In this document: positions 5,667 through 60,294 of the stretch, piece by piece
Numbering within the stretch: position 1 is the first letter of the stretch
Layout: each line of letters begins with the position of its first letter
From: Candidatus Kaiserbacteria bacterium
Lineage (GTDB): Bacteria > Patescibacteriota > Minisyncoccia > Phycocordibacterales > UBA2100
Direction: 5' to 3'
DNA length: 60,294 nucleotides
Assembly (NCBI GenBank): GCA_016217965.1
Contig: JACRFI010000002.1
Coordinates: 1 to 60,294, forward strand
Notes under the pieces: generated by a model
The model's input: only the letters and a program-made list of their open reading frames with translations
Database searches by the model: none
Told to the model about the DNA's origin: nothing
Position numbers and translations under genes: made by a program

Positions 5667-8600
5667 ATGTTTGTTAAGTCTCATAGGGAGGGACATTTTT
5701 TTGGGCTGCTTTTGATGCTTCTAAGCATCAGCCTTTTGCTTGCACTGATTGTCGAGATACCTACTTCAAGAGCTGCGAATGCTCCAATGGGAGATCCAAG
5801 TCCTCAGTGCATGGGAGATTACTGCACATTCAAACCTTTTAAAGGGAGTCCGTATCTTACAGGTAGTTGTGCGGAACCTAAGCAAGGGGAAAAACCGACG
5901 AAAGATGGTCTCATTGGGAAACCATGTCAGGTCACAAAAAATGTTACGACATGCACCGGAAAGTGTCTTGGCGAGCAACCACTTTGCGGTAATGCTACTT
6001 CTTGCAATGGCGAAAAAACGAAAGATGCAAAAGAAACCGAAAAGAAAGCGATAGAGGACTATGAGGACAACCAACAGAAAGCATCGGAAAAACCCAAACA
6101 AGCACCTGAAAGTCCCAACGACTCTGGAGGAGATGCACCGAAAGAAGACTCACAGCAACCGGGCAACAAAGGTCCGCAAACAGGCATGGAGCCTGATTTT
6201 TCCAAATATGGAGAATGGTCGCAGCCGCCACAGCAAAGCCCGCCTTCGAACTCGCCGCCGAGTAGCTCTCCTGATTTTAAATTTAGCGATTTTGGGGAAA
6301 GAGGCAGCATTCAGCCGTCGCAAACGGATGAGAGGTTCAGTGATTTCGGCGAGGGTGGCAACCCTCCACAGTCGGGAAAAACGGGTCCGCAGCCGAGTAC
6401 GTTTGGAAATCCTCCGCCTCAGGGTAGTGGGGGCGACGATTCGCAGGGGGACGGTATTGGCGATAAGCTCGGCGAGATCGCATCCAAAGCAAAGGATGCG
6501 TTAAAAGATTCTGCGACGGATTTTGGTGAACTTCTCGATGACCTAAAAAAGTGGTTGGAAGATTTGAGAGAGCAGTTGAAAGGTGAAGTGGAGAAACCAT
6601 CACCGACTCCGTCGATTGGAGATGAGATTGCAAAGGGAGAAACAAAACCAGAGTTAGATCCCTCTGGGGCGAAACGAGAAAGACTGGATAAAGGCACGAT
6701 CAATTCTGGGAAAGGTGCCAATGTCTGCGCCTTGGGAGTTTGCGGGAAACAATTTACAAGAGATCAGTTGAATAATTTAAAAGGAAAAATTATTCCGGGC
6801 GTGAGGACATCAAAGTTTAATGAAGTTGAGGGAACTGCATATGGAGGAAAAAATAATCCGAATGCGTTTACGACGGCAAGTAAAGAGTTTCCGGCGGGGG
6901 CACGTATCTTGGAATATAACCTAAAGACAGGCGATACAGTGGCAGTGAGTGTCAACGATACAGGTCCATTTGTTGCGGGACGCTATCTTGATACAACTCC
7001 AGCGGGGTTGAACGCCGCAAAGTTGGGAGATTTAAGCAATCCCGATGTTGCATACATGGGGCAAACTGGACCGACGGGATATATGGGTAAATATAGCAGC
7101 TTCGATGACGCAATTGCTGCGTATGAGGCGAGACAAGGTGTTGGTAGTGGTCCGTATTCATCTCCTGTCGCAAGCACTTTGCCGCCATTCAGCCCGCCTC
7201 CGGTAAATTATCCCGGTCCATCGTTCACGAATGAGACTGCGCCCGATTCTTGGTATGACAATTCGGGATGGGATTATTCCGGTTTTGAGAATGTGACGGA
7301 TTGGAATGACTTGTCGAGCACCTATGTGCAGGAAGAAGGTTTGTATTCAGGGCAGCAGGGTGGGCAAGAGCTCGGGAGTGACCCCGATCCAGGATTTGAA
7401 AATGAGACAGGTGGCAATGATCCAGACCCGGGATTCGAGAATGAGGTGGATGGTAATGATCCTGATCCAGGATTTGAAAACGACCTGCCGCCCACTGTAC
7501 CTGGTGCCCGTCAGCTTGGCGATGAGTTGCCAGTCGAAGGCTTTAGACCAGACCCAGGTTTCGAGAACTATTTGGGCAATGACCCTGATCCCGGATTCGA
7601 AAACGAGCAGGTGGGTAATGATCCAGACCCTGGGTTTGAAAATGAGATAGATGGCAATGACCCTGACCCTGGTTTCGAGAACGATGCCGATTTTGACTCA
7701 GAGCAGGAACGGCTTAGTGAACTTGAACGAGCAGGAAAAGAGTTGCAACGACAGGAGGACGAAACCTTTGCAAGTACTATGGCTAGAAATCTCCAAGACT
7801 GGACGGAGCAAGCATTTGCGAGCGACATGGCGCGAAATATCCAAGAGTGGACAGAGACACGGCTTGCGGAAATACAGCAAGCAGCGATTGACAGACTGAG
7901 TGGGGACACGTGGGAGAAATATCTTGATTGGGATTATGGAGAGCCGACTCCGGAAGGCGATGATGTGGCTGAGCAACCGGGTGACCAGTTTAAGCAAAAG
8001 GATACGTTTGATCCCGAAGAAGAGCGCTTGGCAGAGCAAAAGAGCCTGGGAGATGAATTGCAGCGGCAAGCCGAAGAGAAAGCAGCAGAAAAAGAGAAGA
8101 GAGCAGAGGAGATAGCAAAAAATCTCGACAATGAAGATGTCGAGAGAGGGAAGGAAATGTCTCAACCGGAGGATGAGGTCGCGAAACAAGCACGACAAGA
8201 ACAGCAGAAGAAGGAAGAAGAGGAAAAGCGAGCCGCAAAACAGAAAGAAGTCGATGAGGCGATGAAAAAGAGCGCGGAAGCCGATAAGGTGAAAGAGGAG
8301 GCACAAAAACGCGCGGAGGCGGCTGATAAAAGGATAGAGGAAAGAAGCAAGGCACTAAGCGATGCCACGGAAAAGAAGAAGAAAGCAGAAGAGGCGGCGA
8401 AGAAAAGTGGTGGCGCACTTAAGCAAGCAAAAGATAATTTGAACGAGAATGTAAATGGCATCAAAAATCTAAAAGGTGCTGCTGAACGGGGGCTGCGTAC
8501 GGCGGAGGAGGTGGGCAAACAGACAGGAGACGAGGATCAGGTAAGAAGCAAAGCGCGTGCCGCGATAGGGCGAATTGACACGGACCCTCTTCGGGACGCG

Positions 8601-11423
8601 GCAGAAAGCCCATTGCTGTCCCAGAAGCAAAAAGATAGCCTTATTGGTACTGCTAATCGGGTAGACAGAAATAGTGAACGGATAGAAACCTTGGGTACGA
8701 ACGGAGGGTCTGTTGCCGAGATGAGAAGTCTCGCGAGTAGATCAATTGATGATTTGGGAGGGGCTCTTTCAACAGCGCAAGCTGGCTTAAAAAATGAAAA
8801 CACAACGCTCACAGTTCAGGCTGCAAGTGACGCACGGGCACTCAGTGTTGCCACAGCAGAATTTAACAATGCTGGGAAGTCACTGTGGTCCTCTGCAATC
8901 TCTGCAGATAGAGCATGGAGTTCCTACTATGAAGCGGACGAGGCATCATTGAATGCATACATAGAGTCGTGGAAAGTCTCGGGTGAGGGCTGGGATCTTG
9001 GTGACATACAAACCTATACTCCTGGACTTCCTGGATCGGGAGATATAGTGCCAGGATTTGTCGCTCCGCCTACCGACCAAGGGGATCTTCTTAGTATGGA
9101 TTCTTCTGCATGGAATTACGACGCTGAAGGTTGGGTCAAGACCGATTGGGATAGCGAGTCCGTGTTGAAGGTGACGGAAGATAAAGTATTCGAGTCCATA
9201 CTTGGAGAAGATACGCGAGCTTGGCAGCAGGTCGAACAAATGCTTGCTGATGAGCAAGAACAAGCCATACAGAGATTTCTTAAGCGATGGGAAAATGAAC
9301 CAGAAAACTGGGAAACAGCGGTAGATCCTTGGCGCCCGCTTTCCGCTGCAGCTCAGGAGAAAGCTGATGAATTGCAAAAAAAGATTGCTGCGGAGCATGA
9401 AAAGATACGAGCCGCTAAGGCGCGGCTTGAAGCGGGATATGGAACTGATTTTGAAAAAATCCCGACTCGAAAATTATTTGGGGAGTCAGAAGCGAACAAA
9501 TGGCGAGACGATCTCTGGACTGCACAAAAAGACTTGGCGCAATACGAAGCCGATCTAGCAAAGGTTAAGAGAGACGATATTGATGCCGGATACATTGACA
9601 CGGCAGGTGAAATGAACAAGGCGGATCTGGCTGCGCGAGATGCTCTCTCGGGGCAATTACGAGAGCACGAGGAAAAACTGGAATCGGTTATTGCAGCGGA
9701 GAGGCAAGAACGCAACAACGTAGTCCAGCAATATATAGATGACAAGCGTATGACGAGAGATATGTTAGAGGCTGTGACAAAGGAAAGCCGAGGAATAACT
9801 GAGGGAGCGTTAGGAAAGGATTGGGAGAAAGGGAAGTTTTTCGGATTTGCACGTGACCTGCAATATTTGCAATTAGCTCGGGAGGATGCGCTGATACGGT
9901 CCGACGGGTGTGGCGAAAATTGTGCGATAAAACTATATCCGGAAGGATCGCAGCCACCAACGCAGTGGGATAGGGCTGTTGCCGCAGTTAAGGCATGTTT
10001 TGGTTTCTGCGGTGATGCGACTCCAACTCAAATTCCGACCGAAGTTCCCACAACAGATTGGTCAGCGTATAAGGATTCAGATGTTCTATCGTACAGACCT
10101 GAATCACCGCTCGACCATGATATCCCTGGAGATGATGTTGCGGAGCAGCCAGGAAGAATTTTCGACGATGGACAGCTGGATCAACCGCATGATTATGATG
10201 GCGACGAAGAATATGCAAAGTTAAACAATGAGCAGAAAGAGAACGCGATACGTGCATTGCAAGATCAATATAAGGAAGCCTATGCCGAATTCAAAAATGC
10301 TGATCGTAACGATACGCAGAAATTGTTTAGCGCACTAAGAGCGCAAAATGATCGAAATGAGTTTTTTGCGAGGCTTCAGGAAGATCAAAGCTATCAAGAA
10401 TACATGAAGAATAGACCGATAACGGTGTCAGATTTGCCCGATGGTGATGACCTCGAGGACAATGAAATTTTCGGGGTTTCGTATAACAAAGAGAGTGCAA
10501 AATTAATGGAGGAATTAGAGACGTGGATCAAGGACGACTGGGATAAACATTACAAGGACGTACCGCCTGAACCTCCAACGAGATCTGTTGCTCCGTCTGC
10601 GACGAAAGTAGAGCCACCAGATCCGTTTCCCGCTGATGCGACCGATGTGCCGGAAAATGTAAAGAGGCCGCCGAAAGACGAGCCGGATTTTCCTGCGGAT
10701 GCGACTGATGTGCCGGAGAGCGTGAAGCGACCTCCGAAAGCCGAGACTCCTCCTCCTGCTGCCGCTAAAACGCCACCGACGCCAGGCCCTACAGCTTCGG
10801 GGCCCGGTCCAGGCCCTTCGGGAGGCAATGCAGACGCGAGTGGCTCTGGCTCTGGTTCTGGGGGAGGTCTTGGCGGAATCTTTGAAAAGCTGATGAATGC
10901 GCTCAAAGATTTCTTTAAACCAAAAGAGCAAAAGCAGAACCAGCAACAACAGCAAGCGCAGCAAGGGCAGCAGACGCCACCAGCGATAGCCTCTATCTTT
11001 GCGCGCCCACCGACGGTCAAGAAAGGTGAGAAGACACGTTTGATATGGGGAAGTGTGAACACAACGAGTTGCATCGTATTTGATGAACTTAGCAATGAGG
11101 TTGCGAGAGGCACTTCTGACGGAGCTGCGACAACGACCGCACTTTTTGCGACGACAAAATTCAAAGTTACTTGCCAGGGGAAAAATGGCTCCCAAGCCTC
11201 AGCAAGCACACAGGTAACTGTCACGGCAGCAACTCCTACGTTAAATAAAACAAAAACGAATACTACAACCACAAAAACCAACACAAACACGCAAACGAAA
11301 ACGCAAACTAATACGAACACAAACACAGAGACTCAAACAAATACCGGGGCCAAGAATAGTACTGACGAGATATGCCACCCATCACTGCCGTACGATGAAT
11401 TTGTCGCGTGCGTGCTTCGTTGA
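5667..11423 (+). CDS. giant (1918 aa) modular surface/secreted protein with an RlpA-like DPBB module
   Basis: Single uninterrupted ORF with these parts:
- signal anchor, aa 11-33
- 8-Cys head, aa 48-113
- P/S/G-rich linker
- aa ~385-456 EGTAYGG..TASKEF..VSVNDTGPFVAGRYLDTTPAGLNAAKLG, resembling the RlpA/DPBB signature
- 8x DPDPGFEN, aa 571-672
- long E/K/A-rich coiled-coil-like region
- several internal duplications
- beta-rich Ig-like ~75 aa followed by a T/N/Q low-complexity tail. Confidence 0.8.
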   Translation: MFVKSHREGHFFGLLLMLLSISLLLALIVEIPTSRAANAPMGDPSPQCMGDYCTFKPFKGSPYLTGSCAEPKQGEKPTKDGLIGKPCQVTKNVTTCTGKCLGEQPLCGNATSCNGEKTKDAKETEKKAIEDYEDNQQKASEKPKQAPESPNDSGGDAPKEDSQQPGNKGPQTGMEPDFSKYGEWSQPPQQSPPSNSPPSSSPDFKFSDFGERGSIQPSQTDERFSDFGEGGNPPQSGKTGPQPSTFGNPPPQGSGGDDSQGDGIGDKLGEIASKAKDALKDSATDFGELLDDLKKWLEDLREQLKGEVEKPSPTPSIGDEIAKGETKPELDPSGAKRERLDKGTINSGKGANVCALGVCGKQFTRDQLNNLKGKIIPGVRTSKFNEVEGTAYGGKNNPNAFTTASKEFPAGARILEYNLKTGDTVAVSVNDTGPFVAGRYLDTTPAGLNAAKLGDLSNPDVAYMGQTGPTGYMGKYSSFDDAIAAYEARQGVGSGPYSSPVASTLPPFSPPPVNYPGPSFTNETAPDSWYDNSGWDYSGFENVTDWNDLSSTYVQEEGLYSGQQGGQELGSDPDPGFENETGGNDPDPGFENEVDGNDPDPGFENDLPPTVPGARQLGDELPVEGFRPDPGFENYLGNDPDPGFENEQVGNDPDPGFENEIDGNDPDPGFENDADFDSEQERLSELERAGKELQRQEDETFASTMARNLQDWTEQAFASDMARNIQEWTETRLAEIQQAAIDRLSGDTWEKYLDWDYGEPTPEGDDVAEQPGDQFKQKDTFDPEEERLAEQKSLGDELQRQAEEKAAEKEKRAEEIAKNLDNEDVERGKEMSQPEDEVAKQARQEQQKKEEEEKRAAKQKEVDEAMKKSAEADKVKEEAQKRAEAADKRIEERSKALSDATEKKKKAEEAAKKSGGALKQAKDNLNENVNGIKNLKGAAERGLRTAEEVGKQTGDEDQVRSKARAAIGRIDTDPLRDAAESPLLSQKQKDSLIGTANRVDRNSERIETLGTNGGSVAEMRSLASRSIDDLGGALSTAQAGLKNENTTLTVQAASDARALSVATAEFNNAGKSLWSSAISADRAWSSYYEADEASLNAYIESWKVSGEGWDLGDIQTYTPGLPGSGDIVPGFVAPPTDQGDLLSMDSSAWNYDAEGWVKTDWDSESVLKVTEDKVFESILGEDTRAWQQVEQMLADEQEQAIQRFLKRWENEPENWETAVDPWRPLSAAAQEKADELQKKIAAEHEKIRAAKARLEAGYGTDFEKIPTRKLFGESEANKWRDDLWTAQKDLAQYEADLAKVKRDDIDAGYIDTAGEMNKADLAARDALSGQLREHEEKLESVIAAERQERNNVVQQYIDDKRMTRDMLEAVTKESRGITEGALGKDWEKGKFFGFARDLQYLQLAREDALIRSDGCGENCAIKLYPEGSQPPTQWDRAVAAVKACFGFCGDATPTQIPTEVPTTDWSAYKDSDVLSYRPESPLDHDIPGDDVAEQPGRIFDDGQLDQPHDYDGDEEYAKLNNEQKENAIRALQDQYKEAYAEFKNADRNDTQKLFSALRAQNDRNEFFARLQEDQSYQEYMKNRPITVSDLPDGDDLEDNEIFGVSYNKESAKLMEELETWIKDDWDKHYKDVPPEPPTRSVAPSATKVEPPDPFPADATDVPENVKRPPKDEPDFPADATDVPESVKRPPKAETPPPAAAKTPPTPGPTASGPGPGPSGGNADASGSGSGSGGGLGGIFEKLMNALKDFFKPKEQKQNQQQQQAQQGQQTPPAIASIFARPPTVKKGEKTRLIWGSVNTTSCIVFDELSNEVARGTSDGAATTTALFATTKFKVTCQGKNGSQASASTQVTVTAATPTLNKTKTNTTTTKTNTNTQTKTQTNTNTNTETQTNTGAKNSTDEICHPSLPYDEFVACVLR

Positions 11424-49233: not shown

Positions 49234-49890
49234 TTAGTCTTCTAAATATCTTGCTTCCGCTGGCAAGATGCCAAGTTTCGAAAGAGGGAAAAGACGAAGG
49301 AGAACGCGCCCGACAATATTTTCTCGTGGCAGCACTCCCCATGTGCGTGAGTCCGAAGATACACGTCGGTTGTCTCCCATGACGAAATATTGTCCCTCTC
49401 CTAATGTTTCGGTTGCGCTTTGTGGGCCGCCAAGGTTTTCAATCGCAAGGTACGGCTCTTCAATATAAAACCCGTCGGGATGTTCGGCGTTTTGTATGGT
49501 GATCCCGGCACCATTTACTGTCACTGTTTCTCCGGGGAGCCCAATGACTCGTTTTATTAGTGTGCGCGAATACTCTTGGGGCAAATGAAAGACGATAACA
49601 TCTCCGCGGGACGGCTCTTCTATGCGATACGATATCCTGTCGGTGATGAGATAGTCCCAGTTTTGGAAATTTGGCTCCATGGAGCTGCCGGAAACGACAT
49701 ACGGTGCCGCTATAAAGAAGCGGATGAAGAGCGCAAGCCCGAGAGCGAGAATTGTGTAGCCAAAAAGAGCCCCTCGCCCTGGCGAATTGCCGGCATTTTG
49801 CGCCGCTTCTCTCATTCCACTCGCTGGCGCGGCTTCAAACTGGTCATTTGTGGAGATTCCATCCCGTTTATTTTGAAAAAGTTCACTCAT
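49234..49890 (-). CDS. lepB: signal peptidase I
   Basis: 218 aa. VSGSSMEPNF (catalytic Ser), LIKRVIGLPGE (Lys) and GDNRRVSSDSR. Confidence 0.9.
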   Translation of the reverse strand: MSELFQNKRDGISTNDQFEAAPASGMREAAQNAGNSPGRGALFGYTILALGLALFIRFFIAAPYVVSGSSMEPNFQNWDYLITDRISYRIEEPSRGDVIVFHLPQEYSRTLIKRVIGLPGETVTVNGAGITIQNAEHPDGFYIEEPYLAIENLGGPQSATETLGEGQYFVMGDNRRVSSDSRTWGVLPRENIVGRVLLRLFPLSKLGILPAEARYLED

Positions 49891-49971
49891 GAGTGACTTA
49901 CAACGGGCAACACGCTCGACAGTATACTACCAAGTGTGATTGACACCAAGTGAAGGTGGTGTTGTGTCGAC

Positions 49972-50090
49972 AAAAACTCTTTTTCGGCGCAGGGTTTCCG
50001 TCGCACGGATATTTTTCTGCTGAAAAATTCCTCGAGCTCGCGCCGATCGCGCTCGCTAGGCGCCGTTAACCCTGCGCCTCAGCGAGTTTT
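49972..50090. repeat. branched-hairpin intergenic repeat, copy B2
   Basis: AAAAACTC/GAGTTTTT outer stem. GGCGCAGGGTT/AACCCTGCGCC stem. Inner hairpin GGAtATTTTTC-TGCT-GAAAAATTCC. Lies between the divergent lepB and pth genes. Confidence 0.7.
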
Positions 50091-50143
50091 TTATGTACAA
50101 ACAGCTTTAGTAAGTGCGTTTGCGTCTGGTACTATGCCGGAAT

Positions 50144-53683: not shown

Positions 53684-56179
53684 ATGGCTCGTAAGAATAC
53701 TCCAACTGATGTGGCTCCTCCAGCACGAGATCCTTCTCTCGGCGTTGTCGCACGCTCTATCACCACGGAGATGCGTGAATCGTATCTCGATTATGCGATG
53801 TCCGTCATCACGGCGCGCGCGCTTCCCGATGTACGCGATGGATTGAAACCGGTGCACCGCCGCATTCTTTTTGCGATGCAGGAATTGGGGCTCACAGCAT
53901 CAGCAAAAACGAGAAAATCTGCAACGGTCGTTGGCGAGGTTCTCGGCAAATACCACCCGCATGGCGATGCGGCTGTGTACGAATCGATGGTGAAAATGGC
54001 GCAAGATTTTACGCTGCGCTATCCGATGATCATCGGACAAGGAAACTGGGGTTCTATTGATGGGGATGCGGCAGCCGCAATGCGATACACGGAAGCAAAA
54101 ATGTCGCGCCTCGCAGGAGAGATGCTGAAAGATATCGAAAAAGACACCGTAGATTTTCGACCGAACTATGACAACACAAAGCAAGAGCCAACAGTCCTTC
54201 CCGCTGCCGCGCCAAATCTTCTCATCAATGGGACTCTCGGCATCGCGGTCGGGATGGCATCAAACATTCCCCCGCACAATCTTAGAGAAGCTTGCAATGC
54301 CGCCGTACATCTCATTGAGAATCCCGAGGCGACAACAGATGATCTCCTACAATTCATACAAGGTCCGGATTTTCCAACAGGCTGCATGGCGTTCAATCAG
54401 AAAGATCTCGCGCATGCCTATGCGACCGGGCGCGGGGGTGTCGTCGTGCGCGGGGATGCGGAGATAATAGAAGGGAAGAAAGAAGACTACAGCATCGTCA
54501 TCACATCTATTCCTTACCGCGTGAACAAAGCGGACCTTCTCCAAAAGATAGCGGACCTGGTACACGAGAAGAAACTTGAAGGCATCCGCGATGTGCGCGA
54601 TGAATCCACAAAAGACATCCGTGTTGTAGTGGAGTTGAAGAACAACGCCAACGCGCAGACGGTCCTTAACTACCTCTATAAACATACGCAACTGGAAGAA
54701 ACATTTCATTTCAATGTTGTCGCACTCGTTGACGGAGTTCCGCAAACACTTTCTCTTAAAGCGCTTCTCCAATCGTTCATCTTGCATCGAAAAGAGGTCG
54801 TCACGAGGCGCACGAAATTCGACCTGCGGAAAGCTGAAGAGAGGGAGCATATCCTCCTCGGCCTCAAGAAGGCGCTCGACCACATTGACGAGATCATCAA
54901 ACTCATCAAGAAATCGAAGGACGTGAATGATGCGCGGGCGTCTCTCATGAAGGTTTTCAAATTCTCAGAGATACAGGCGAATGCCATACTCGACATGCGC
55001 CTCCAAAAACTTGCCGGCCTCGAGCGAAAGAAAATAGAGGACGAACTTAAGGAAGTGCAGGCTCTCATCGAGGAACTCACCGCACTCCTTAAGAGCGAAA
55101 AGAAATTAATGGGCCTCATCGAGAAAGAAATTTCTGAGATCGGCGAGAAATATGGCGACGACCGTAGGACAAAAATTGTGAAGCGCGCAGCGCAGCTTCT
55201 TTCTGCCGAGGACTTGGTTGCCGATGAAGACTCTGTTCTTGTCTTAACGCAGGGCGGATACATCAAGCGGACGAACCCAAATGAATACCGCCGTCAGAAG
55301 CGGGGAGGGATCGGGGTAGTCGATCTGGATACTAAAGAGGAAGATTTTGTCACGCAGTTTTTGACCGCGAGCGCACACAGCGACCTTCTCTTTTTCTCTG
55401 ACAGGGGCAAGGCGTACCAGCTAAAAATGTACGAGCTCCCAGAAGGAAAGCGCGCGACCAAGGGCAAGTCCATCATGAACTTCCTCTCGCTTGAGCAGGG
55501 TGAAAGTATCACGTCAATTTTGCCAATGCCGAAGAACGTCAAAGGAAGTGACGGACTCTCTCTTCTTATGGCAACAAAGCAGGGGACCGTAAAGAAAACG
55601 GCGGCCGACAAATTCAGAGAAGTCCGCAGAAGCGGGCTGTTAGCGATTTCGCTGGATAAAGGTGACTCGCTCATTTCTGCCCAATTCGCGCGAAAAGGCG
55701 ATTCGGTCATTCTCACGACGGCAAAAGGCCAATCGATCCGCTTTGCAGAGGAAGAAGTTCGCGAGATGGGACGGCAGGCGGCGGGTGTGCGCGGCATGAG
55801 GCTTTCTTCAGGAGATTCCATCGTGGGCGCGGACGTGGTGCAAAAAGAGGCGAAAGATGGCTCACTTCTAGTTATTTCTTCCACTGGATATGGGAAGAAA
55901 ACGAAACTGTCTGAATATAAGATACAGGGGCGTGGCGGAAGCGGCATAAAAACCATGTCAATCACAGCAAAGACGAAACAGCTTGTCGGCGCAGCTGTGC
56001 TCATTGAAAAAGGCGGAGAACTCGTTGCGATGTCGAAAAAGAGCCAGACTATTCGAACAGGGCTCGATGAGATACCGACGCTCTCACGCGCGACGCAGGG
56101 CGTGCGCGTCATGAAAATGCGCGAAGGGGATCAGGTTGCATCTTTCGTTGTGTTTGGGGTTGTCGAGGGTGAAGAATAA
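53684..56179 (+). CDS. gyrA: DNA gyrase subunit A
   Basis: 831 aa. [32 protein letters not shown] (catalytic Tyr) and C-terminal beta-pinwheel repeats. Confidence 0.97.
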
Positions 56180-56240
56180 TTGCCAACATAGTGTTGCTGT
56201 CCAGCAAGTTCGGCGATTTTTCGCTGTATAATGCGTAGCG

Positions 56241-56810
56241 ATGAATACGGAGCCTTCGGGGAAGCAGGCGGCGCCTTTTGCACACCCGCGACGGAACGTG
56301 GCAGCGCTCGGCATCCAGCCGGGCATGAAAATCGCGGATTTCGGCGCGGGAAGTGGCGCGTATGTGCACGCGATAGCAAATGAGCTATCCGGCAGTGGAA
56401 CGGTGTATGCCGTTGACGTCCAGAAAGACCTTTTGCGCAGAATAAAGAATGACGCGCTCAAGCGAGGGCTTCATAATGTGGAAGTCGTGTGGGCGGATAT
56501 CGAGAAGCCTGGCGCATCAAAGATAAAAGAGCACATGCTCGATCTGGTGCTTATCTCGAATCTTCTCTTTCAATTGCAGAACCACAAGGTCCCCTTCGTA
56601 GAAGCGCATCGCATTTTGAAAAAAGAAGGACGTCTCGCCGTCATTGATTGGAATGACTCGTATGGAGGCATCGGGCCAATAAAATCTCACGTGGTTCCAA
56701 AGGGTGAAGTGATATTGTTAGCGAACAATGCCGGGTTCGAGCTCGCGAGAGAATTTTCTGCCGGAACGCACCACTACGGCCTTATCTTCAGGGTGGCGAG
56801 GAACACGTAG
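56241..56810 (+). CDS. class I SAM-dependent methyltransferase
   Basis: 189 aa. Motif I is KIADFGAGSGAY, with an acidic residue after beta-2 (VYAVDV). The substrate is unknown. Confidence 0.7.
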   Translation: MNTEPSGKQAAPFAHPRRNVAALGIQPGMKIADFGAGSGAYVHAIANELSGSGTVYAVDVQKDLLRRIKNDALKRGLHNVEVVWADIEKPGASKIKEHMLDLVLISNLLFQLQNHKVPFVEAHRILKKEGRLAVIDWNDSYGGIGPIKSHVVPKGEVILLANNAGFELAREFSAGTHHYGLIFRVARNT

Positions 56811-56824
56811 TATCATTTGGATGT

Positions 56825-58123
56825 ATGTCGAAACTTTCTTTCTTCCAGATAGTCATACTCTCGGTCTTCGGAGCTCTCGCAATAGGCGGCGTCATGATAT
56901 TCGCGTTTGTTGTCGGAGGTTCGGGTGGTGAGGGCATTGGCGAAGTCGAGATATGGGGCACGCTCGATGCGGGAGCATTCTCTGTAGTTCTGCGGCAGCT
57001 CTCAGACGAGGATAGCCGCCTTAAGGCGGTCACCTACGTGCAGAAAGATGAAGCGACATTTTCACGGGATGTGACAGATGCTCTCGCTTCTGGCTCTGGG
57101 CCAGAGCTATTCATACTTCGGAACGATTATGCCGAGCGTGATGGCGCAAAGGCTGTGGCGATTCCATTTGCGTCGTTCTCGGAAGAGCAGTTCCAGAATA
57201 CGTTCATCGAGGCGGCCAGCCCGTTTGTGGGAGGGGATGGCATCCGAGGTGTGCCGTTCGCGGCAGACCCACTCGTCTTGTATTGGAATCGCGATCTTAT
57301 GGGGAGTGCGGGTTTCTCTCAAGCGCCACAATACTGGGGTGATTTTTATGACATCGCGTCGAAGGCGACGATGAAGGACGACACTAATACCGTAAAGAAA
57401 AGCGGCGTCGCGTTGGGTGAATATTCAAATGTGAATCACGCAAAGGATATTCTCGCGCTCCTCATATTGCAGGCTGGAGGCAGAATAACGTCGCGTGATA
57501 GCACGGGAAAACTCTCGACGGCGCTAGTGTCTCGTGCGGGGGACACACAGCAACCTTCAGAGTCTGCGGTCAGGTTCTTCACAGAATTCGCGAATCCTAT
57601 TAAGACGTACTATTCATGGAACCGTGCTCGCCCAGAGAGCAGACAGACGTTCGCGACAGGGGACTTGGCACTGTATGTAGGCCTTGCGAGCGAGGAGCCG
57701 TTGATACGCAGGCTGAATCCAAATTTGAATTTCGCGGTTGCCCCTGTGCCACAGATAAAGGGCGGGAATCGATCGCTGGATGTCGCGCATGTGTACGCAT
57801 TTGCTGTGCCGAAAGCAAGCGCGAACCGAGAGGGCGCACTTACTGTCGCGTACCTACTGGCTTCGCAAAAGCCATCTCAGCTTCTCTCTCAAGCGCTTGG
57901 CATCCCTTCGGCGAGAAGAGATGTCCTTGCTATGCCGCTTTCGGGGCGTGATGATCTATTTAATAAACAGGCCATTATCGCTCGCAGCTGGACAGACCCG
58001 GATCCGGAAAAGACGGATACAATATTTCGCGATATGATTGAATCCATCACCTCCGGCGCCGCGCGGCTTTCCGAGGCGATACAGCGCGCAGACCAGGCGA
58101 TGACGCAGCTTATGAGCATATGA
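56825..58123 (+). CDS. extracellular solute-binding protein (family 1, MalE-like), membrane anchored, with no adjacent permease
   Basis: 432 aa. N-terminal TM anchor. The pattern IWGTLD..., PELFILRNDY, PFAADPLVLYWNRDL and LALYVGLASE is typical of ABC substrate-binding proteins. Confidence 0.6.
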   Translation: MSKLSFFQIVILSVFGALAIGGVMIFAFVVGGSGGEGIGEVEIWGTLDAGAFSVVLRQLSDEDSRLKAVTYVQKDEATFSRDVTDALASGSGPELFILRNDYAERDGAKAVAIPFASFSEEQFQNTFIEAASPFVGGDGIRGVPFAADPLVLYWNRDLMGSAGFSQAPQYWGDFYDIASKATMKDDTNTVKKSGVALGEYSNVNHAKDILALLILQAGGRITSRDSTGKLSTALVSRAGDTQQPSESAVRFFTEFANPIKTYYSWNRARPESRQTFATGDLALYVGLASEEPLIRRLNPNLNFAVAPVPQIKGGNRSLDVAHVYAFAVPKASANREGALTVAYLLASQKPSQLLSQALGIPSARRDVLAMPLSGRDDLFNKQAIIARSWTDPDPEKTDTIFRDMIESITSGAARLSEAIQRADQAMTQLMSI

Positions 58124-58482
58124 TGCACCTTAGGCACAAAGCACAATTTACACTTGTCTTCTTACTTTGCTTTTGTGCCGTAGTTTTGCCGTTCGCATTT
58201 GCTGCAGCAGCAACAAGCCTAGAGAATCCCACGAAATTTCCGACCATCGAGAAATTCATCGAAGGTGTATTAAAGGCGGTGGTCTATATAGCACTTCCGG
58301 TCATTGCACTGTTCATGGTCTATGCCGGTTTCAAATATGTGTCTGCCAGAGGCGACATTGGAAAAATAAAAGAGGCTCACACAAATTTTCTGTACGTCGT
58401 TATTGGCGCAATTCTCATTCTTGGCGCGTGGGTGTTCGCAACATTGATTGGCGGCACGGTTTCGCAGCTTGTCGGGCCATGA
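58120..58482 (+). CDS. TrbC/VirB2-like pilin-type small membrane protein, paralogue 1
   Basis: 120 aa. Signal peptide ending AFAAAA, then two TM helices separated by the charged loop SARGDIGKIKEAHTN. ATGA overlaps on both sides. Confidence 0.6.
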   Translation: MMHLRHKAQFTLVFLLCFCAVVLPFAFAAAATSLENPTKFPTIEKFIEGVLKAVVYIALPVIALFMVYAGFKYVSARGDIGKIKEAHTNFLYVVIGAILILGAWVFATLIGGTVSQLVGP

Positions 58483-58871
58483 ATAAGAAGCTTTATATTG
58501 CTTCGGCGTTTTGTCTCACGTTCTTGCCAATTGCCGCCTCGGCTGCGTCGCCGAGAACCTATCGCGAGCTTGTCGTGTACATAGTGAATATCATGAATTA
58601 TGCGGTGGGAACGCTCATCATTCTCGGGCTTGTCATCTACCTGTTTGGAGCGGCACGAAATATCTTGAAGGCAAAAGATGGCGATTCGAGCGCCAGCCGG
58701 AAATTTCTTCTGATGGGCATTGCCATTCTTTTTGTAATGGTTTCTATTTGGGGCATTCTCGAACTTTTGCAAAACACATTCCTCTCCGGGGGTCTGTTTG
58801 ACCCGGGAGGTGGAGAAGAGACTATAGATGACTGCGCTTTCGGCGACCCGAGTTGTTCCATAGGTTTTTAA
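58479..58871 (+). CDS. TrbC/VirB2-like pilin-type small membrane protein, paralogue 2
   Basis: 130 aa from the internal ATG (MNKKLYIASAFCLTFLPIAASAAS). Two TM helices, the shared motif FVMVSIWGILELLQ, and a C-terminal Cys pair. Confidence 0.6.
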   Translation: MNKKLYIASAFCLTFLPIAASAASPRTYRELVVYIVNIMNYAVGTLIILGLVIYLFGAARNILKAKDGDSSASRKFLLMGIAILFVMVSIWGILELLQNTFLSGGLFDPGGGEETIDDCAFGDPSCSIGF

Positions 58872-58872
58872 T

Positions 58873-59169
58873 ATGCGTAACCGAGTTCATTCGCGTCTTC
58901 TCTCTATTGCGGTTTCGGCAGCGGTACTTCCGGGCATTGCCGGAGCGCTCACGATGCGGGAGGCATACGAGTCTGTATCGCCGCTTCTGTATGGCGCTAT
59001 TGGTTTTTTTGGCGCTGCCGCCGTCCTAGCGCTTGGTGGGGGATTGATCATATATTTCTCACGCATGGCACTCGACAATCGTGTGGAAGGGATAGACGTA
59101 ATGATCAAAGCCGTGCAAATTCTGTTTGTAGTCGTCATTCTCGTCGCGGTAGTGGCGCTCATTGAGTGA
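58873..59169 (+). CDS. pilin-type small membrane protein, paralogue 3
   Basis: 98 aa. Signal-like N-terminus, then two TM helices separated by SRMALDNRVEGID. Confidence 0.5.
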   Translation: MRNRVHSRLLSIAVSAAVLPGIAGALTMREAYESVSPLLYGAIGFFGAAAVLALGGGLIIYFSRMALDNRVEGIDVMIKAVQILFVVVILVAVVALIE

Positions 59170-59282
59170 CTCCGATCGGCATGCGTCTCGCGGGTCGCCT
59201 CTCTAGATGCATGTCTGCCTCCCTATAACTTATCCACACAGTAGAGTCTCAGGCGCGCGTGGACTGCCGAGAAGGGGATAGA

Positions 59283-59684
59283 ATGAGAGCACTTAGGAAC
59301 CATTTAATTTATTTTTCTATGAGCGCACGGTTTGCTTCGATAGTTGCCGCAGGAACACTGATACTTCCGGCAATCGCTTCTGCCCAGACTCTTCTCAATA
59401 CGTTGGCGCTCATCAATACGTTCCTCAACGCCCTCATCGGGCTTTTCATCACCCTCGCTATCGTCGCGTTCTTCTGGGGGCTCATCAAGTACCTCGTCAA
59501 CATGAACAACGAGTCGGCGAAGGAGGGCATTCAGATAATGCTCTGGGGCGTTATTGCTATCTTCGTCATGGTTTCTATCTGGGGAATCATTCGTCTCCTC
59601 CAGGCAACGTTCCGCGTGACTTCAACTGACCCGGTCATTCCGAAGGGTATACAGATAAATACGGGAGGGACAGGTTTCAATTGA
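59283..59684 (+). CDS. TrbC/VirB2-like pilin-type small membrane protein, paralogue 4
   Basis: The start was placed at the ATG after GAAGGGGA. Signal ...LILPAIASAQ, two TM helices, and the motif FVMVSIWGIIRLLQ shared with paralogue 2. Confidence 0.6.
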   Translation: MRALRNHLIYFSMSARFASIVAAGTLILPAIASAQTLLNTLALINTFLNALIGLFITLAIVAFFWGLIKYLVNMNNESAKEGIQIMLWGVIAIFVMVSIWGIIRLLQATFRVTSTDPVIPKGIQINTGGTGFN

Positions 59685-59720
59685 TGATCGAGTTCGTCAC
59701 TAAATCTCAAAGCGAGCGTA

Positions 59721-59820
59721 GTGCGAGAAAAGCTTCTGAAGGGGCTCTGCAGGCCGGCGGGCCGAAGCCCGAGCGATTTTTCAGCAGAAAAATTGCGTAC
59801 CCGGAAGAAGCTTTTCGCGC
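59721..59820. repeat. branched-hairpin intergenic repeat, copy B3 (reverse orientation)
   Basis: On the reverse complement: GCGAAAAGCTTCT...AGAAGCTTTTCTCGC outer stem, CAATTTTTC-TGCT-GAAAAATCG hairpin, and CGGGC-TTCG-GCCCG hairpin. Lies between pilin paralogues 4 and 5. Confidence 0.65.
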
Positions 59821-59838
59821 GCCTAGTGAGTAACACCT

Positions 59839-60156
59839 ATGGATGCTGGTGTCACATTGATGCAGAGGATAGACGAGCTGATACTACAGCCGACCATCTA
59901 TCTCATTTTGACGGCCGGGCTACTTGTCTTCATCTACGGGCTGGTCCAATTCATTTGGCATGTTCGCGAGGGCACGGATCATAAAGAGGGGCTTAACCAC
60001 ATGTTGTGGGGAATTATCGGGATGTTCATCATGGTGTCCGTGTACGGCATCATTAGCCTCATCATCAACACTATCGGCTCAGACCCAACCAATCCCGATG
60101 TGAGCCGCATCAATAACGTTACGCCAGCTTCAGGATTTTTCAGCCCTATCAAATAG
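59839..60156 (+). CDS. pilin-type small membrane protein, paralogue 5
   Basis: 105 aa. Two TM helices separated by HVREGTDHKEGLNH. The motif FIMVSVYGIISLI is related to paralogues 2 and 4. No obvious cleavable signal. Confidence 0.5.
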   Translation: MDAGVTLMQRIDELILQPTIYLILTAGLLVFIYGLVQFIWHVREGTDHKEGLNHMLWGIIGMFIMVSVYGIISLIINTIGSDPTNPDVSRINNVTPASGFFSPIK

Positions 60157-60294
60157 TGAGTATCTACAACGCTGCTCGAACCTATTTTAGCACCAACGCC
60201 GACTGACTCGCACGCACGCGCCGCGTGCGCTGTTGCTCCAACCCTGATCGTGCGCCCCGATCCGGTGGTGGCTCGTCCGCCCCCGCGCGGAGTA

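What the first reader, a model, noticed from the sequence alone, without database searches (positions are those of the whole stretch)
58120..60156. Array of five tandem TrbC/VirB2-like pilin paralogues at the window edge
There are five consecutive same-strand genes of 98-133 aa. Each has a signal-like or hydrophobic N-terminus followed by two TM helices joined by a short charged loop, which is the topology of conjugative/T4SS pilins. Paralogues 2, 4 and 5 share the second-helix motif F(V/I)MVS(I/V)(W/Y)GI. Paralogues 1-3 are linked by ATGA or 1-nt junctions. A branched-hairpin repeat (B3) separates paralogues 4 and 5. Five diversified copies in a row suggest either a heteromeric filament or antigenic or host-range variation of a surface fibre. 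The rest of any secretion machinery (VirB4, VirB6 or TrbL-like) would lie beyond the right edge of the window. In reduced episymbiotic bacteria such pilin-like proteins are abundant, and their apparatus and function remain largely uncharacterised.
Basis: partly seen in the sequence, partly recalled or inferred. Interest (0 to 1): 0.65.

Follow-up and report, generated by a model that had tools for sequence, protein, structure and literature searches.

The report
Conserved VirB2-like pilin gene cassette
Five small membrane-protein genes at the window's right edge are divergent copies of the "type IV secretion pilin" family already known to form tandem arrays in ultra-small Patescibacteria; here they form an old, strictly conserved operon with a sugar-binding-protein-like gene, far from any secretion machinery.

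Summary
Five same-strand ORFs (120, 130, 98, 133 and 105 aa) sit at the stated coordinates, with the stated junctions and the shared motif. All five belong to Pfam PF18895 (T4SS_pilin, VirB2/TrbC-like). P1 passes the curated cut-offs. P2 to P5 are divergent, but PF18895 is the top family across their orthologues.

Tandem VirB2-like pilin arrays in Patescibacteria are already published: 441 arrays of 2-11 genes, plus an essential six-pilin array in Southlakia epibionticum. That makes the kind known.

- **Conserved cassette.** The five genes are five ancient orthogroups, kept in the same order in about 80 species-level Kaiserbacteria-type genomes. The order is always gyrA, SAM-methyltransferase, membrane-anchored SBP_bac_8 protein, g1, g2, g3, a gap of about 110 nt, g4, g5.
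- **Selection.** dN/dS is 0.06-0.13, which argues against antigenic variation.
- **No nearby machinery.** In relatives, about 20 kb to the right of the array is housekeeping (RbfA, IF-2, ClpB, ParB, TopA). I found no VirB4, VirB6 or T4CP there or in the window. VirB4 is reported elsewhere in most of these genomes.

Most likely these are non-redundant subunits of a pilus-like envelope fibre or channel served by a distant T4SS. The SBP linkage leaves a T4SS-independent role open.

The parts
56241..56810 (+). Class-I SAM-dependent methyltransferase (189 aa). It is the conserved upstream neighbour of the cassette. Whether it belongs to the cassette functionally is uncertain.
   Evidence: Pfam Methyltransf_31/11/25. 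A homologue sits directly upstream of the SBP gene, usually overlapping it, in 68 of 72 loci.
56825..58123 (+). Membrane-anchored protein with a solute-binding-protein fold (SBP_bac_8, 432 aa, N-terminal TM helix). Its stop overlaps the P1 start (ATGA).
   Evidence: PF13416 at 2e-17. The nearest solved relatives are sugar/maltose-type SBPs. It is present immediately upstream of g1 in essentially every one of about 80 loci, with a median gap of -4 nt.
58120..58482 (+). P1 (orthogroup g1): a VirB2/TrbC-like T4SS pilin with a signal peptide and a 2-TM hairpin with a basic loop.
   Evidence: PF18895 at 37.6 bits and PF04956 at 31.6 bits, both above the curated cut-offs. The AF2 model has pLDDT 87, with helices at 2-30, 43-75 and 80-118. 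phmmer with a TrbC/VirB2 protein from a Gram-positive plasmid hits 79 g1 orthologues.
58479..58871 (+). P2 (g2): a divergent pilin paralogue with a signal peptide, a 2-TM hairpin and a Cys-containing extracellular tail.
   Evidence: The window copy has no Pfam hit of its own, but 13 of 61 orthologues hit PF18895. hhalign against g4 gives 99.8% probability.
58873..59169 (+). P3 (g3): a divergent pilin paralogue. In this clade it is a short 2-TM form (98-115 aa); most relatives have a 3-TM form of 134-152 aa with a charged tail.
   Evidence: 18 of 61 orthologues hit PF18895. hhalign against g4 gives 98.6% and against g2 97.1%. Length comparison.
59170..59282 (.). The g3-g4 spacer, the only conserved long gap in the cassette. 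It may hold an internal start of transcription or a processing site (inferred).
   Evidence: The gap has a median of 112 nt over 65 loci, while all upstream junctions overlap. The window copy has no consensus promoter or Rfam match.
59283..59684 (+). P4 (g4): the most conserved paralogue. It has a long leader, a mature N-terminus QTLLNTLAL..., the FVMVSIWGI helix and a conserved tail VTSTDPVIPKGIQINTG. The alternative start is 59319.
   Evidence: PF18895 at 25.0 bits, just under the cut-off. Homologues are 62-88% identical, and many carry precomputed PF18895 hits. The alignment has 43 invariant columns. dN/dS is 0.065.
59685..59838 (+). A structured branched-hairpin repeat element inserted between P4 and P5. 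The 49-aa ORF called here by one pipeline is probably not a gene.
   Evidence: MFE -60.5 kcal/mol, z = -3.6. It is absent from L008 and L009. A second copy with the same architecture lies at 49960-50095 on the minus strand.
59839..60156 (+). P5 (g5): a pilin paralogue without a signal peptide. It is a 2-TM hairpin with an acidic N-tail and an extracellular C-tail.
   Evidence: PF18895 at 20.1 bits for the window copy, and 51 of 61 orthologues hit PF18895. hhalign against g4 gives 99.3%. All orthologues lack a signal peptide.

Best explanation
The window comes from the chromosome of a groundwater Candidatus Kaiserbacteria-type bacterium (Patescibacteria/CPR). Its right edge carries a conserved cassette: a SAM-methyltransferase, a membrane-anchored SBP-fold protein, and five anciently diverged members of the VirB2/TrbC-like T4SS_pilin family (PF18895).

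Shown:
- Family membership of the five proteins.
- Signal peptides with AxA-type cleavage sites on P1-P4. A LepB-type signal peptidase gene lies at 49234-49890.
- The 2-TM hairpin fold.
- A fixed gene order with overlapping starts and stops from the SBP gene through g3, then a second unit g4-g5.
- Five separate orthogroups under purifying selection.
- No T4SS machinery within the 58 kb to the left, or within about 20 kb to the right in relatives.

Inferred: the proteins insert with both termini outside and the charged loop inside, as VirB2 does. They act as non-interchangeable subunits of one envelope-spanning, pilus-like fibre or channel. g4 is the best candidate for the main subunit, and the others for minor or base subunits. 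Assembly would depend on the Patescibacterial monoderm-type T4SS (VirB4/VirB6/VirB3/VirB8), which these genomes encode elsewhere. The co-translated SBP-fold protein would be a partner, either a ligand- or host-glycan-binding receptor or an anchor at the fibre.

The five copies are not antigenic variants.
For: - Family: plus (link to a TrbC/VirB2 protein in a pLS20-like Gram-positive conjugation cluster).
- Topology.
- Conserved cassette and spacing in about 80 of 329 species-level genomes.
- Orthologue versus paralogue identity.
- Purifying selection.
- VirB4 is reported in the assemblies that gave L008 (the closest relative), L011, L015, L025, L043 and L077, and in 19 of 24 Kaiserbacteria rows read (Table S1 of PMC12102498).
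- Precedent: an essential six-pilin array in Southlakia epibionticum (PMC10633639; PMC12857230), and 441 arrays with about 25% identity within each array (PMC12102498).
Against: - Nothing here links this cassette to the T4SS physically. It is never next to virB4 in the loci seen.
- Three array-bearing draft MAGs are listed without VirB4 (L017, L038, L042).
- The fold search was uninformative, with no PDB match at E <= 0.001. A profile search found no solved VirB2 or TraA.
- g1 is only weakly linked to g2-g5 by direct profile comparison (25-33% probability).
- No pilus made of VirB2-like subunits has yet been seen in any Patescibacterium (PMC12857230).
- No RNA or protein data exist for this locus. 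Only DNA runs hold it.
Confidence: 0.55

Rival explanations
1. A T4SS-independent membrane module. The five 2-TM proteins would form a hetero-oligomeric membrane complex that works with the co-translated SBP-fold protein, for example as a receptor/anchor or an unconventional uptake device. Their pilin ancestry would be historical only.
For: - Strict, translationally coupled linkage to the SBP gene, and none to virB4, in about 80 genomes.
- The cassette sits among housekeeping genes.
- The cassette is present in three MAGs scored VirB4-negative.
- The SBP's TM anchor resembles the second helix of g1, 13/29 identical.
Against: - All five are PF18895 members. In the one genetic study, this family is essential and encoded inside a T4SS cluster.
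- The VirB4-negative genomes are drafts.
- No ABC, TRAP or other transporter component is linked to the cassette.
- Similarity between TM helices may reflect composition only.
Confidence: 0.25
2. Antigenic or host-range variation: a set of interchangeable major-pilin variants that are diversified, and perhaps alternately expressed, to evade or match hosts. This was the first reader's alternative, by analogy to Bartonella and Anaplasma VirB2 paralogues.
For: - Low identity between paralogues, 14-36%.
- The same idea is raised for Patescibacterial arrays in PMC12102498.
Against: - Each position is its own orthogroup in about 80 species, and orthologues are more alike than paralogues.
- dN/dS is 0.06-0.13, close to the SBP gene's 0.056.
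- The extracellular tail of g4 is nearly invariant.
- No recent duplications or conversion tracts were seen. The paralogues differ in architecture: g5 has no signal peptide and g3 usually has three TM helices.
Confidence: 0.05
3. Generic small inner-membrane proteins, whose pilin-family hits are artefacts of hydrophobic composition.
For: - The window copies of P2 and P3 have no significant Pfam hit. Many weak hits go to unrelated membrane families.
- The fold search returns only generic helical hairpins.
Against: - P1 passes two curated pilin cut-offs.
- PF18895 is by far the most frequent family in every orthogroup.
- A real TrbC/VirB2 protein from a conjugation cluster finds g1, g4 and g2 specifically among 11,817 ORFs.
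Confidence: 0.08

Closest known systems
Tandem VirB2-like pilin arrays of Patescibacteria (Quinonero-Coronel et al. 2025, PMC12102498): 441 arrays of 2-11 genes detected with PF04956/PF18895
   Same: Same protein family and same phylum. The arrays are tandem and same-strand, with low identity within each array (about 25% there, 14-36% here) and a chromosomal location.
   Different: That survey reports arrays mainly in Microgenomatia and Saccharimonadia and does not describe this cassette. Here only g1 passes the curated thresholds, so the array would be under-counted. The cassette is fused to an SBP-like gene and a methyltransferase gene, lies far from virB4, and is fixed in order across the lineage.
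Essential six-pilin array inside the T4SS cluster (SEML1_0006-0019) of Southlakia epibionticum ML1 (Wang et al. 2023, PMC10633639; reviewed in PMC12857230)
   Same: [quoted passage not shown] This suggests non-redundant subunits.
   Different: There the array lies within the T4SS gene cluster and essentiality was shown by Tn-seq. Here no T4SS gene lies within tens of kb and nothing has been tested experimentally.
VirB2/TrbC/TraA conjugative pilins of Gram-negative T4SSs (Pfam PF04956)
   Same: A long leader, a mature protein of about 70-100 aa forming a hairpin of two hydrophobic helices with a basic loop, and processing by signal peptidase I. P1 passes the PF04956 cut-off.
   Different: Those systems normally have a single copy encoded beside virB3/virB4. 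The host here is a monoderm. No cyclisation or acetylation partner (TraF, TraX) was seen. No sequence match to any solved pilin.
TrbC/VirB2-family small proteins in Gram-positive conjugation clusters (e.g. Macrococcoides canis pB8, pLS20-like) and the Mbov_0395 ICE pilin-like family (NF045849)
   Same: phmmer links the pB8 protein to g1 at E of 1e-8 to 1e-5. NF045849 gives weak hits to P1, P4 and P5. Both come from monoderm hosts.
   Different: Those proteins are single-copy, lie inside mobile-element transfer operons next to VirD4- and VirB4-like genes, and lack the SBP partner.

Membership tests
Pfam PF18895 T4SS_pilin | Profile score at or above the gathering cut-off (26.6 bits) | tested here: met
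   P1 scores 37.6 bits, so the feature is met for P1 only. The window copies of P4 (25.0) and P5 (20.1) fall below the cut-off, and P2 and P3 give no hit. Many orthologues of g2, g3, g4 and g5 do hit PF18895 at E <= 0.01: 13/61, 18/61 and 51/61 for g2, g3 and g5, and precomputed hits for g4.
Pfam PF04956 TrbC/VirB2 pilin | Profile score at or above the gathering cut-off (27.9 bits) | tested here: met
   P1 scores 31.6 bits, and nearly all g1 homologues carry PF04956. P2-P5 do not meet the cut-off. Only 3 of 61 g2 orthologues give weak hits.
VirB2-type pilin | A cleavable signal peptide followed by two hydrophobic helices joined by a short charged (cytoplasmic) loop | tested here: met
   Hydropathy and AxA-type sites in P1-P4. 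AF2 helices. P5 has the hairpin but no signal peptide. Cleavage itself was not tested.
VirB2-type pilin | Structural similarity to solved conjugative pilins (TraA, VirB2, TrbC) | tested here: inconclusive
   Foldseek of the P1 model against the PDB found nothing at E <= 0.001. An archaeal conjugation pilin (8dfu) appears only at E = 5.3. Helical hairpins this short are poorly discriminated.
VirB2-type pilin | Encoded with, and assembled by, a T4SS (VirB4 ATPase, VirB6, VirB3, VirB8) | tested here: not met
   For genomic linkage, no T4SS component was found in the window, within about 20 kb to the right in relatives, or in about 90 loci searched with Gram-positive VirB4-like, VirD4 and VirB6-like queries. 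VirB4 is reported elsewhere in most of these genomes. Assembly dependence cannot be tested with these tools.
VirB2-type pilin | Polymerises into an extracellular filament | not testable with these tools
   This needs cryo-ET, proteomics or multimer modelling. No filament of this type has yet been reported for any Patescibacterium (PMC12857230).
Patescibacterial tandem VirB2 array (PMC12102498) | Two or more VirB2-like genes in tandem, or separated by one non-pilin gene, with low mutual identity | tested here: met
   Five consecutive genes with 14-36% pairwise identity. g2-g5 are homologous by hhalign at 81-99.8% probability.
Antigenic-variation pilin cassette (Bartonella/Anaplasma-type VirB2 paralogues) | Lineage-specific recent duplication and diversifying selection on exposed parts | tested here: not met
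   Five orthogroups are shared by about 80 species. Gene-wide dN/dS is 0.06-0.13. The exposed tail of g4 is nearly invariant. Site-specific tests were not run.
ABC-transporter solute-binding protein (for the upstream gene) | SBP fold together with a cognate permease and ATPase | tested here: inconclusive
   The fold family is met: PF13416 at 2e-17, with sugar-type SBPs as the nearest solved relatives. No importer permease or ATPase lies in the conserved neighbourhood. The rest of the genome was not available.

The most novel reading that the evidence does not exclude
The cassette of SBP-fold protein plus five pilins, possibly with the coupled methyltransferase, is a self-contained, lineage-wide surface device of Kaiserbacteria. 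In this reading, VirB2-derived subunits build a fibre or conduit whose receptor or tip is a solute-binding-fold protein. That would tie host or ligand recognition directly to a pilus-like structure, for example for capturing host-derived sugars or wall fragments. The device could be independent of the T4SS, or could use it only as an assembly platform. It would be the first case of an SBP recruited as a partner of conjugative-type pilins.
Probability: 0.2. Interest if true: 0.7.

Novelty: new member of a known kind. Interest (0 to 1): 0.38.

Why it matters
VirB2-like pilin arrays are among the few Patescibacteria-specific envelope features shown to be essential for epibiotic growth, yet nobody knows what they build.

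This locus shows that in one large lineage the paralogues are not variable spares. They are a fixed five-part set under purifying selection, which favours a heteromeric machine over immune or host evasion.

The locus also offers a concrete partner to test: the translationally coupled SBP-fold protein. And it gives a natural experiment on whether such pilins need a neighbouring T4SS.

Practically, threshold-based surveys will under-count arrays like this one, because only one of the five genes passes the curated Pfam cut-offs.

Tried and rejected
- **Extending the contig.** The only other assembly holding the locus ends at the same place (L001). An exact look-up of P1 failed because the gene caller used the second ATG. 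I used synteny in relatives instead.
- **PDB searches.** The profile search with the g1 alignment gave no pilin, only chance GPCR hits at E of about 8. Foldseek of the P1 model gave generic helical hairpins and nothing significant. I did not submit the P4 model, because its leader and first TM helix are modelled as one continuous helix.
- **Rfam.** No match in 56000-60294.
- **Promoter and terminator scan.** Not above shuffled expectation. The only notable site is a terminator-like hairpin inside the inserted repeat.
- **Shine-Dalgarno argument for g4 as the major subunit.** Rejected, because SD motifs are rare before all genes of the cassette across loci.
- **RNA evidence.** Only three DNA runs from groundwater metagenomes hold the locus.
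- **A sixth pilin as a marker for the T4SS cluster.** A solitary Cys-rich PF18895 pilin lies about 10 kb downstream in relatives, after ClpB. Its neighbours are MiaA, ParB, RelA/SpoT, TopA and DprA, so it does not mark the cluster.
- **Direct search for a Kaiserbacteria VirB4.** I relied on Table S1 of PMC12102498.
- **Table S3 of that paper** (positions relative to virB4) is cut off in the stored copy before the relevant assemblies.


Full report

| Gene | Coordinates | Length | Note |
|---|---|---|---|
| P1 | 58120-58482 | 120 aa | start overlaps the upstream gene's stop (ATGA) |
| P2 | 58479-58871 | 130 aa | ATGA overlap with P1 |
| P3 | 58873-59169 | 98 aa | 1 nt after P2 |
| P4 | 59283-59684 | 133 aa | 121 aa from the second ATG at 59319 |
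| P5 | 59839-60156 | 105 aa | no signal peptide |

Hydropathy shows an N-terminal signal-like segment ending in an AxA-type site in P1-P4, followed by two hydrophobic helices joined by a short charged loop. P5 has the two helices but no signal peptide. The motif F(V/I)MVS(I/V)(W/Y)GI is present in P2, P4 and P5.

**Family.** P1 passes the curated cut-offs of two pilin families in Pfam: PF18895 T4SS_pilin at 37.6 bits (cut-off 26.6) and PF04956 TrbC/VirB2 at 31.6 bits (cut-off 27.9). P4 (25.0 bits) and P5 (20.1 bits) fall just below the PF18895 cut-off. P2 and P3 give nothing on their own. NCBIfam gives only weak hits to the Mbov_0395 ICE pilin-like family.

I collected positional orthologues from about 80 genomes and scanned them one by one. 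PF18895 is the most frequent family in every orthogroup: g2 13/61, g3 18/61, g5 51/61. Many g4 homologues and nearly all g1 homologues carry precomputed PF18895 hits.

Profile-profile comparison shows g2, g3, g4 and g5 to be homologous to one another (81-99.8% probability). g1 is a more distant branch, at 25-33% against g2 and g4.

An independent link comes from plasmids. The only tblastn match of P1 among 72,556 plasmids is weak (E = 0.1). It is a 76-aa protein annotated "TrbC/VirB2 family protein", sitting in a pLS20-like conjugation cluster of Macrococcoides canis pB8. Used as a phmmer query against 11,817 ORFs of the fetched loci, that protein finds 79 g1 orthologues (E of 1e-8 to 1e-5), 8 g4 and 1 g2.

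AF2 models P1 with confidence (pLDDT 87) as a leader helix plus a helical hairpin. P4 is modelled less well (pLDDT 72). The structural comparison was uninformative: nothing in the PDB at E <= 0.001 and no sequence-profile match to any solved pilin. So fold-level membership remains untested in practice.

**Surroundings.** The window is ordinary chromosome of a Patescibacterium. Its genes include GroEL, MurJ, LepA, LeuRS, TsaD, FtsZ, FtsA, signal peptidase I, Pth, ribosomal protein S1 and GyrA. Homologues are named Candidatus Kaiserbacteria, Paceibacterota or Parcubacteria, and the reads come from groundwater metagenomes.

None of the 40 larger ORFs I scanned is a T4SS component. Directly upstream of the array lie a class-I SAM methyltransferase (56241-56810) and a membrane-anchored SBP_bac_8 protein (56825-58123). 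The nearest solved relatives of the latter are sugar/maltose-type binding proteins.

**What lies to the right.** The contig cannot be extended, so I used synteny. Five annotated relatives on long contigs show the same left flank: S1, Lactamase_B_3, GyrA, methyltransferase, SBP.

After the fifth pilin they continue with housekeeping genes. These are an F420-ligase-like gene or a methyltransferase, then RbfA, IF-2, an aminotransferase and ClpB. Next comes a solitary sixth, Cys-rich PF18895 pilin, followed by MiaA, ParB, RelA/SpoT, TopA, DprA and SerRS. In the two closest relatives, tRNA genes follow g5.

No VirB4, VirB6 or coupling protein appears within about 20 kb. Gram-positive VirB4-like, VirD4 and VirB6-like queries hit nothing in about 90 loci.

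The lineage does have a T4SS. Table S1 of Quinonero-Coronel et al. 2025 lists VirB4 as present in 19 of the 24 Kaiserbacteria assemblies in the part I read. It is also listed as present in the assemblies that gave L008 (the window's closest long relative), L011, L015, L025, L043 and L077. It is listed as absent in the draft assemblies of L017, L038 and L042. That paper places virB4 of Paceibacteria mostly near dnaA/dnaN.

**Evolution.** A scan of one genome per species with the g4 alignment found relatives in 329 species, and I fetched the 80 best loci. With HMMs for each gene, essentially every locus with enough flank shows the same order: SBP, g1, g2, g3, g4, g5. The methyltransferase lies directly upstream in 68 of 72 loci, and gyrA upstream in 55 of 58.

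Spacing is conserved too:
- SBP-g1, g1-g2 and g2-g3: median -4 nt, i.e. overlapping.
- g3-g4: median 112 nt.
- g4-g5: median 31 nt.

The window's 154-nt g4-g5 spacer is longer because of an inserted structured repeat that the closest relatives lack.

Orthologues are more alike than paralogues. Mean pairwise identity across loci is 51% for g1, 41% for g2, 38% for g3, 60% for g4, 49% for g5 and 52% for the SBP. Paralogues within the window share 14-36%.

Nei-Gojobori dN/dS on nine moderately close genome pairs is 0.11 (g1), 0.11 (g2), 0.13 (g3), 0.065 (g4) and 0.057 (g5), against 0.056 for the SBP gene. The mature N-terminus and the C-terminal tail of g4, which would be outside the cell, are almost invariant.

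The paralogues also differ in build. g5 never has a signal peptide. g3 usually has a third TM helix and a charged tail, which the window's clade has lost. Together these results argue against antigenic or host-range variation and for five non-redundant parts.

**Mechanism.**

*Shown:* family membership, leader and hairpin topology, the fixed and translationally coupled cassette, purifying selection, and no adjacent T4SS.

*From established knowledge of VirB2/TraA pilins:* such proteins are inserted by Sec, cleaved by signal peptidase I, and sit with both termini outside and the loop in the cytoplasm. A VirB4-containing T4SS then extracts them into a filament.

*Inferred:* P1-P4 follow this route, and a LepB gene is in the window. 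P5, with an acidic N-tail and no leader, reaches the same topology without cleavage. The five act as distinct subunits of one envelope structure served by the T4SS encoded elsewhere. g4, the most conserved gene, is the likeliest main subunit. The SBP-fold protein is a stoichiometric partner, acting as receptor or anchor.

I put this at about 0.55. The main rival, at about 0.25, is that the cassette works with the SBP independently of any T4SS. It rests on the strict SBP linkage, the lack of any virB4 linkage, and three VirB4-negative draft genomes.

**Comparison with what is known.** Tandem VirB2-like arrays in Patescibacteria are published. One survey found 441 arrays of 2-11 genes in 383 assemblies, with about 25% identity within arrays and the pilin near virB4 in only 1,135 of 1,948 assemblies (PMC12102498).

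An array inside the T4SS cluster of Southlakia epibionticum is essential by Tn-seq (PMC10633639). A 2025 review describes it as six structurally conserved, sequence-divergent VirB2-like pilins and singles these systems out as the only monoderm T4SSs with VirB2-like pilins (PMC12857230).

The present locus is thus a new member of a known kind. I could not find three things in the literature available here:
- the conserved coupling to an SBP-fold gene and a methyltransferase;
- the fixed five-orthogroup composition across a whole lineage;
- the selection evidence against the variation hypothesis that the survey paper itself floated.

**Verdict.** Interest is moderate to low (0.38). The SBP-pilin partnership is the one lead worth following.

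Noticed in passing
window 59685-59838 (+) and 49960-50095 (-): Two copies of a structured intergenic element with the same architecture: a long outer stem, then a multiloop holding a GC-rich hairpin and an AUUUUUC(A/U)GC(A/U)GAAAAAU hairpin. MFE is -60.5 and -57.5 kcal/mol, with z of -3.6 and -5.3. The copy between P4 and P5 is an insertion absent from the closest relatives and carries a terminator-like hairpin. There is no Rfam match. It is probably a small mobile or REP-like repeat of this genome.
   Followed up: partly
L002 20034-20369, L035 16794-17234, L077 18982-19464, L088 10001-10441, L089 10001-10480 (relatives; beyond the window's right edge): A sixth, solitary PF18895 pilin of about 130-160 aa with conserved cysteines (CxxxGGCxSxC ... 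GPWNKxC). In many relatives it lies about 10 kb downstream of the array, just after clpB and a few kb before parB. It too has no T4SS neighbours.
   Followed up: partly
window 58873-59169 versus g3 orthologues (e.g. L002 9380-9820): In the window's clade (window, L008, L009), g3 is a short 2-TM protein of 98-115 aa. In most other genomes it has a third TM helix and a Lys/Glu-rich cytoplasmic tail and is 134-152 aa long.
   Followed up: partly
window 56241-56810: A class-I SAM methyltransferase is translationally coupled to the SBP gene in most relatives (68 of 72 loci have it directly upstream). Whether it modifies the pilins or the SBP, or is an unrelated housekeeping enzyme, is unknown.
   Followed up: partly
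window 56825-56920 versus 58390-58476: The N-terminal TM anchor of the SBP-fold protein resembles the second helix of g1 (13/29 identical against the L004 orthologue, pairwise E = 1e-4). This could reflect hydrophobic composition or a shared packing interface.
   Followed up: no
window 5667-11423: A giant 1,918-aa ORF whose only Pfam signal is a weak DPBB_1 (lytic-transglycosylase-like) domain. It is a possible large surface protein and was not examined further.
   Followed up: no
L036 11067-11426, L051 8254-8685, L075 7256-7586: A few relatives carry an extra g4-like copy just downstream of g5. Occasional duplication therefore does occur, and always of the most conserved paralogue.
   Followed up: no
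L089 10863-13124: A 753-aa protein with no Pfam hit lies directly after the solitary Cys-rich pilin in one relative. It is absent at that position in L088.
   Followed up: no
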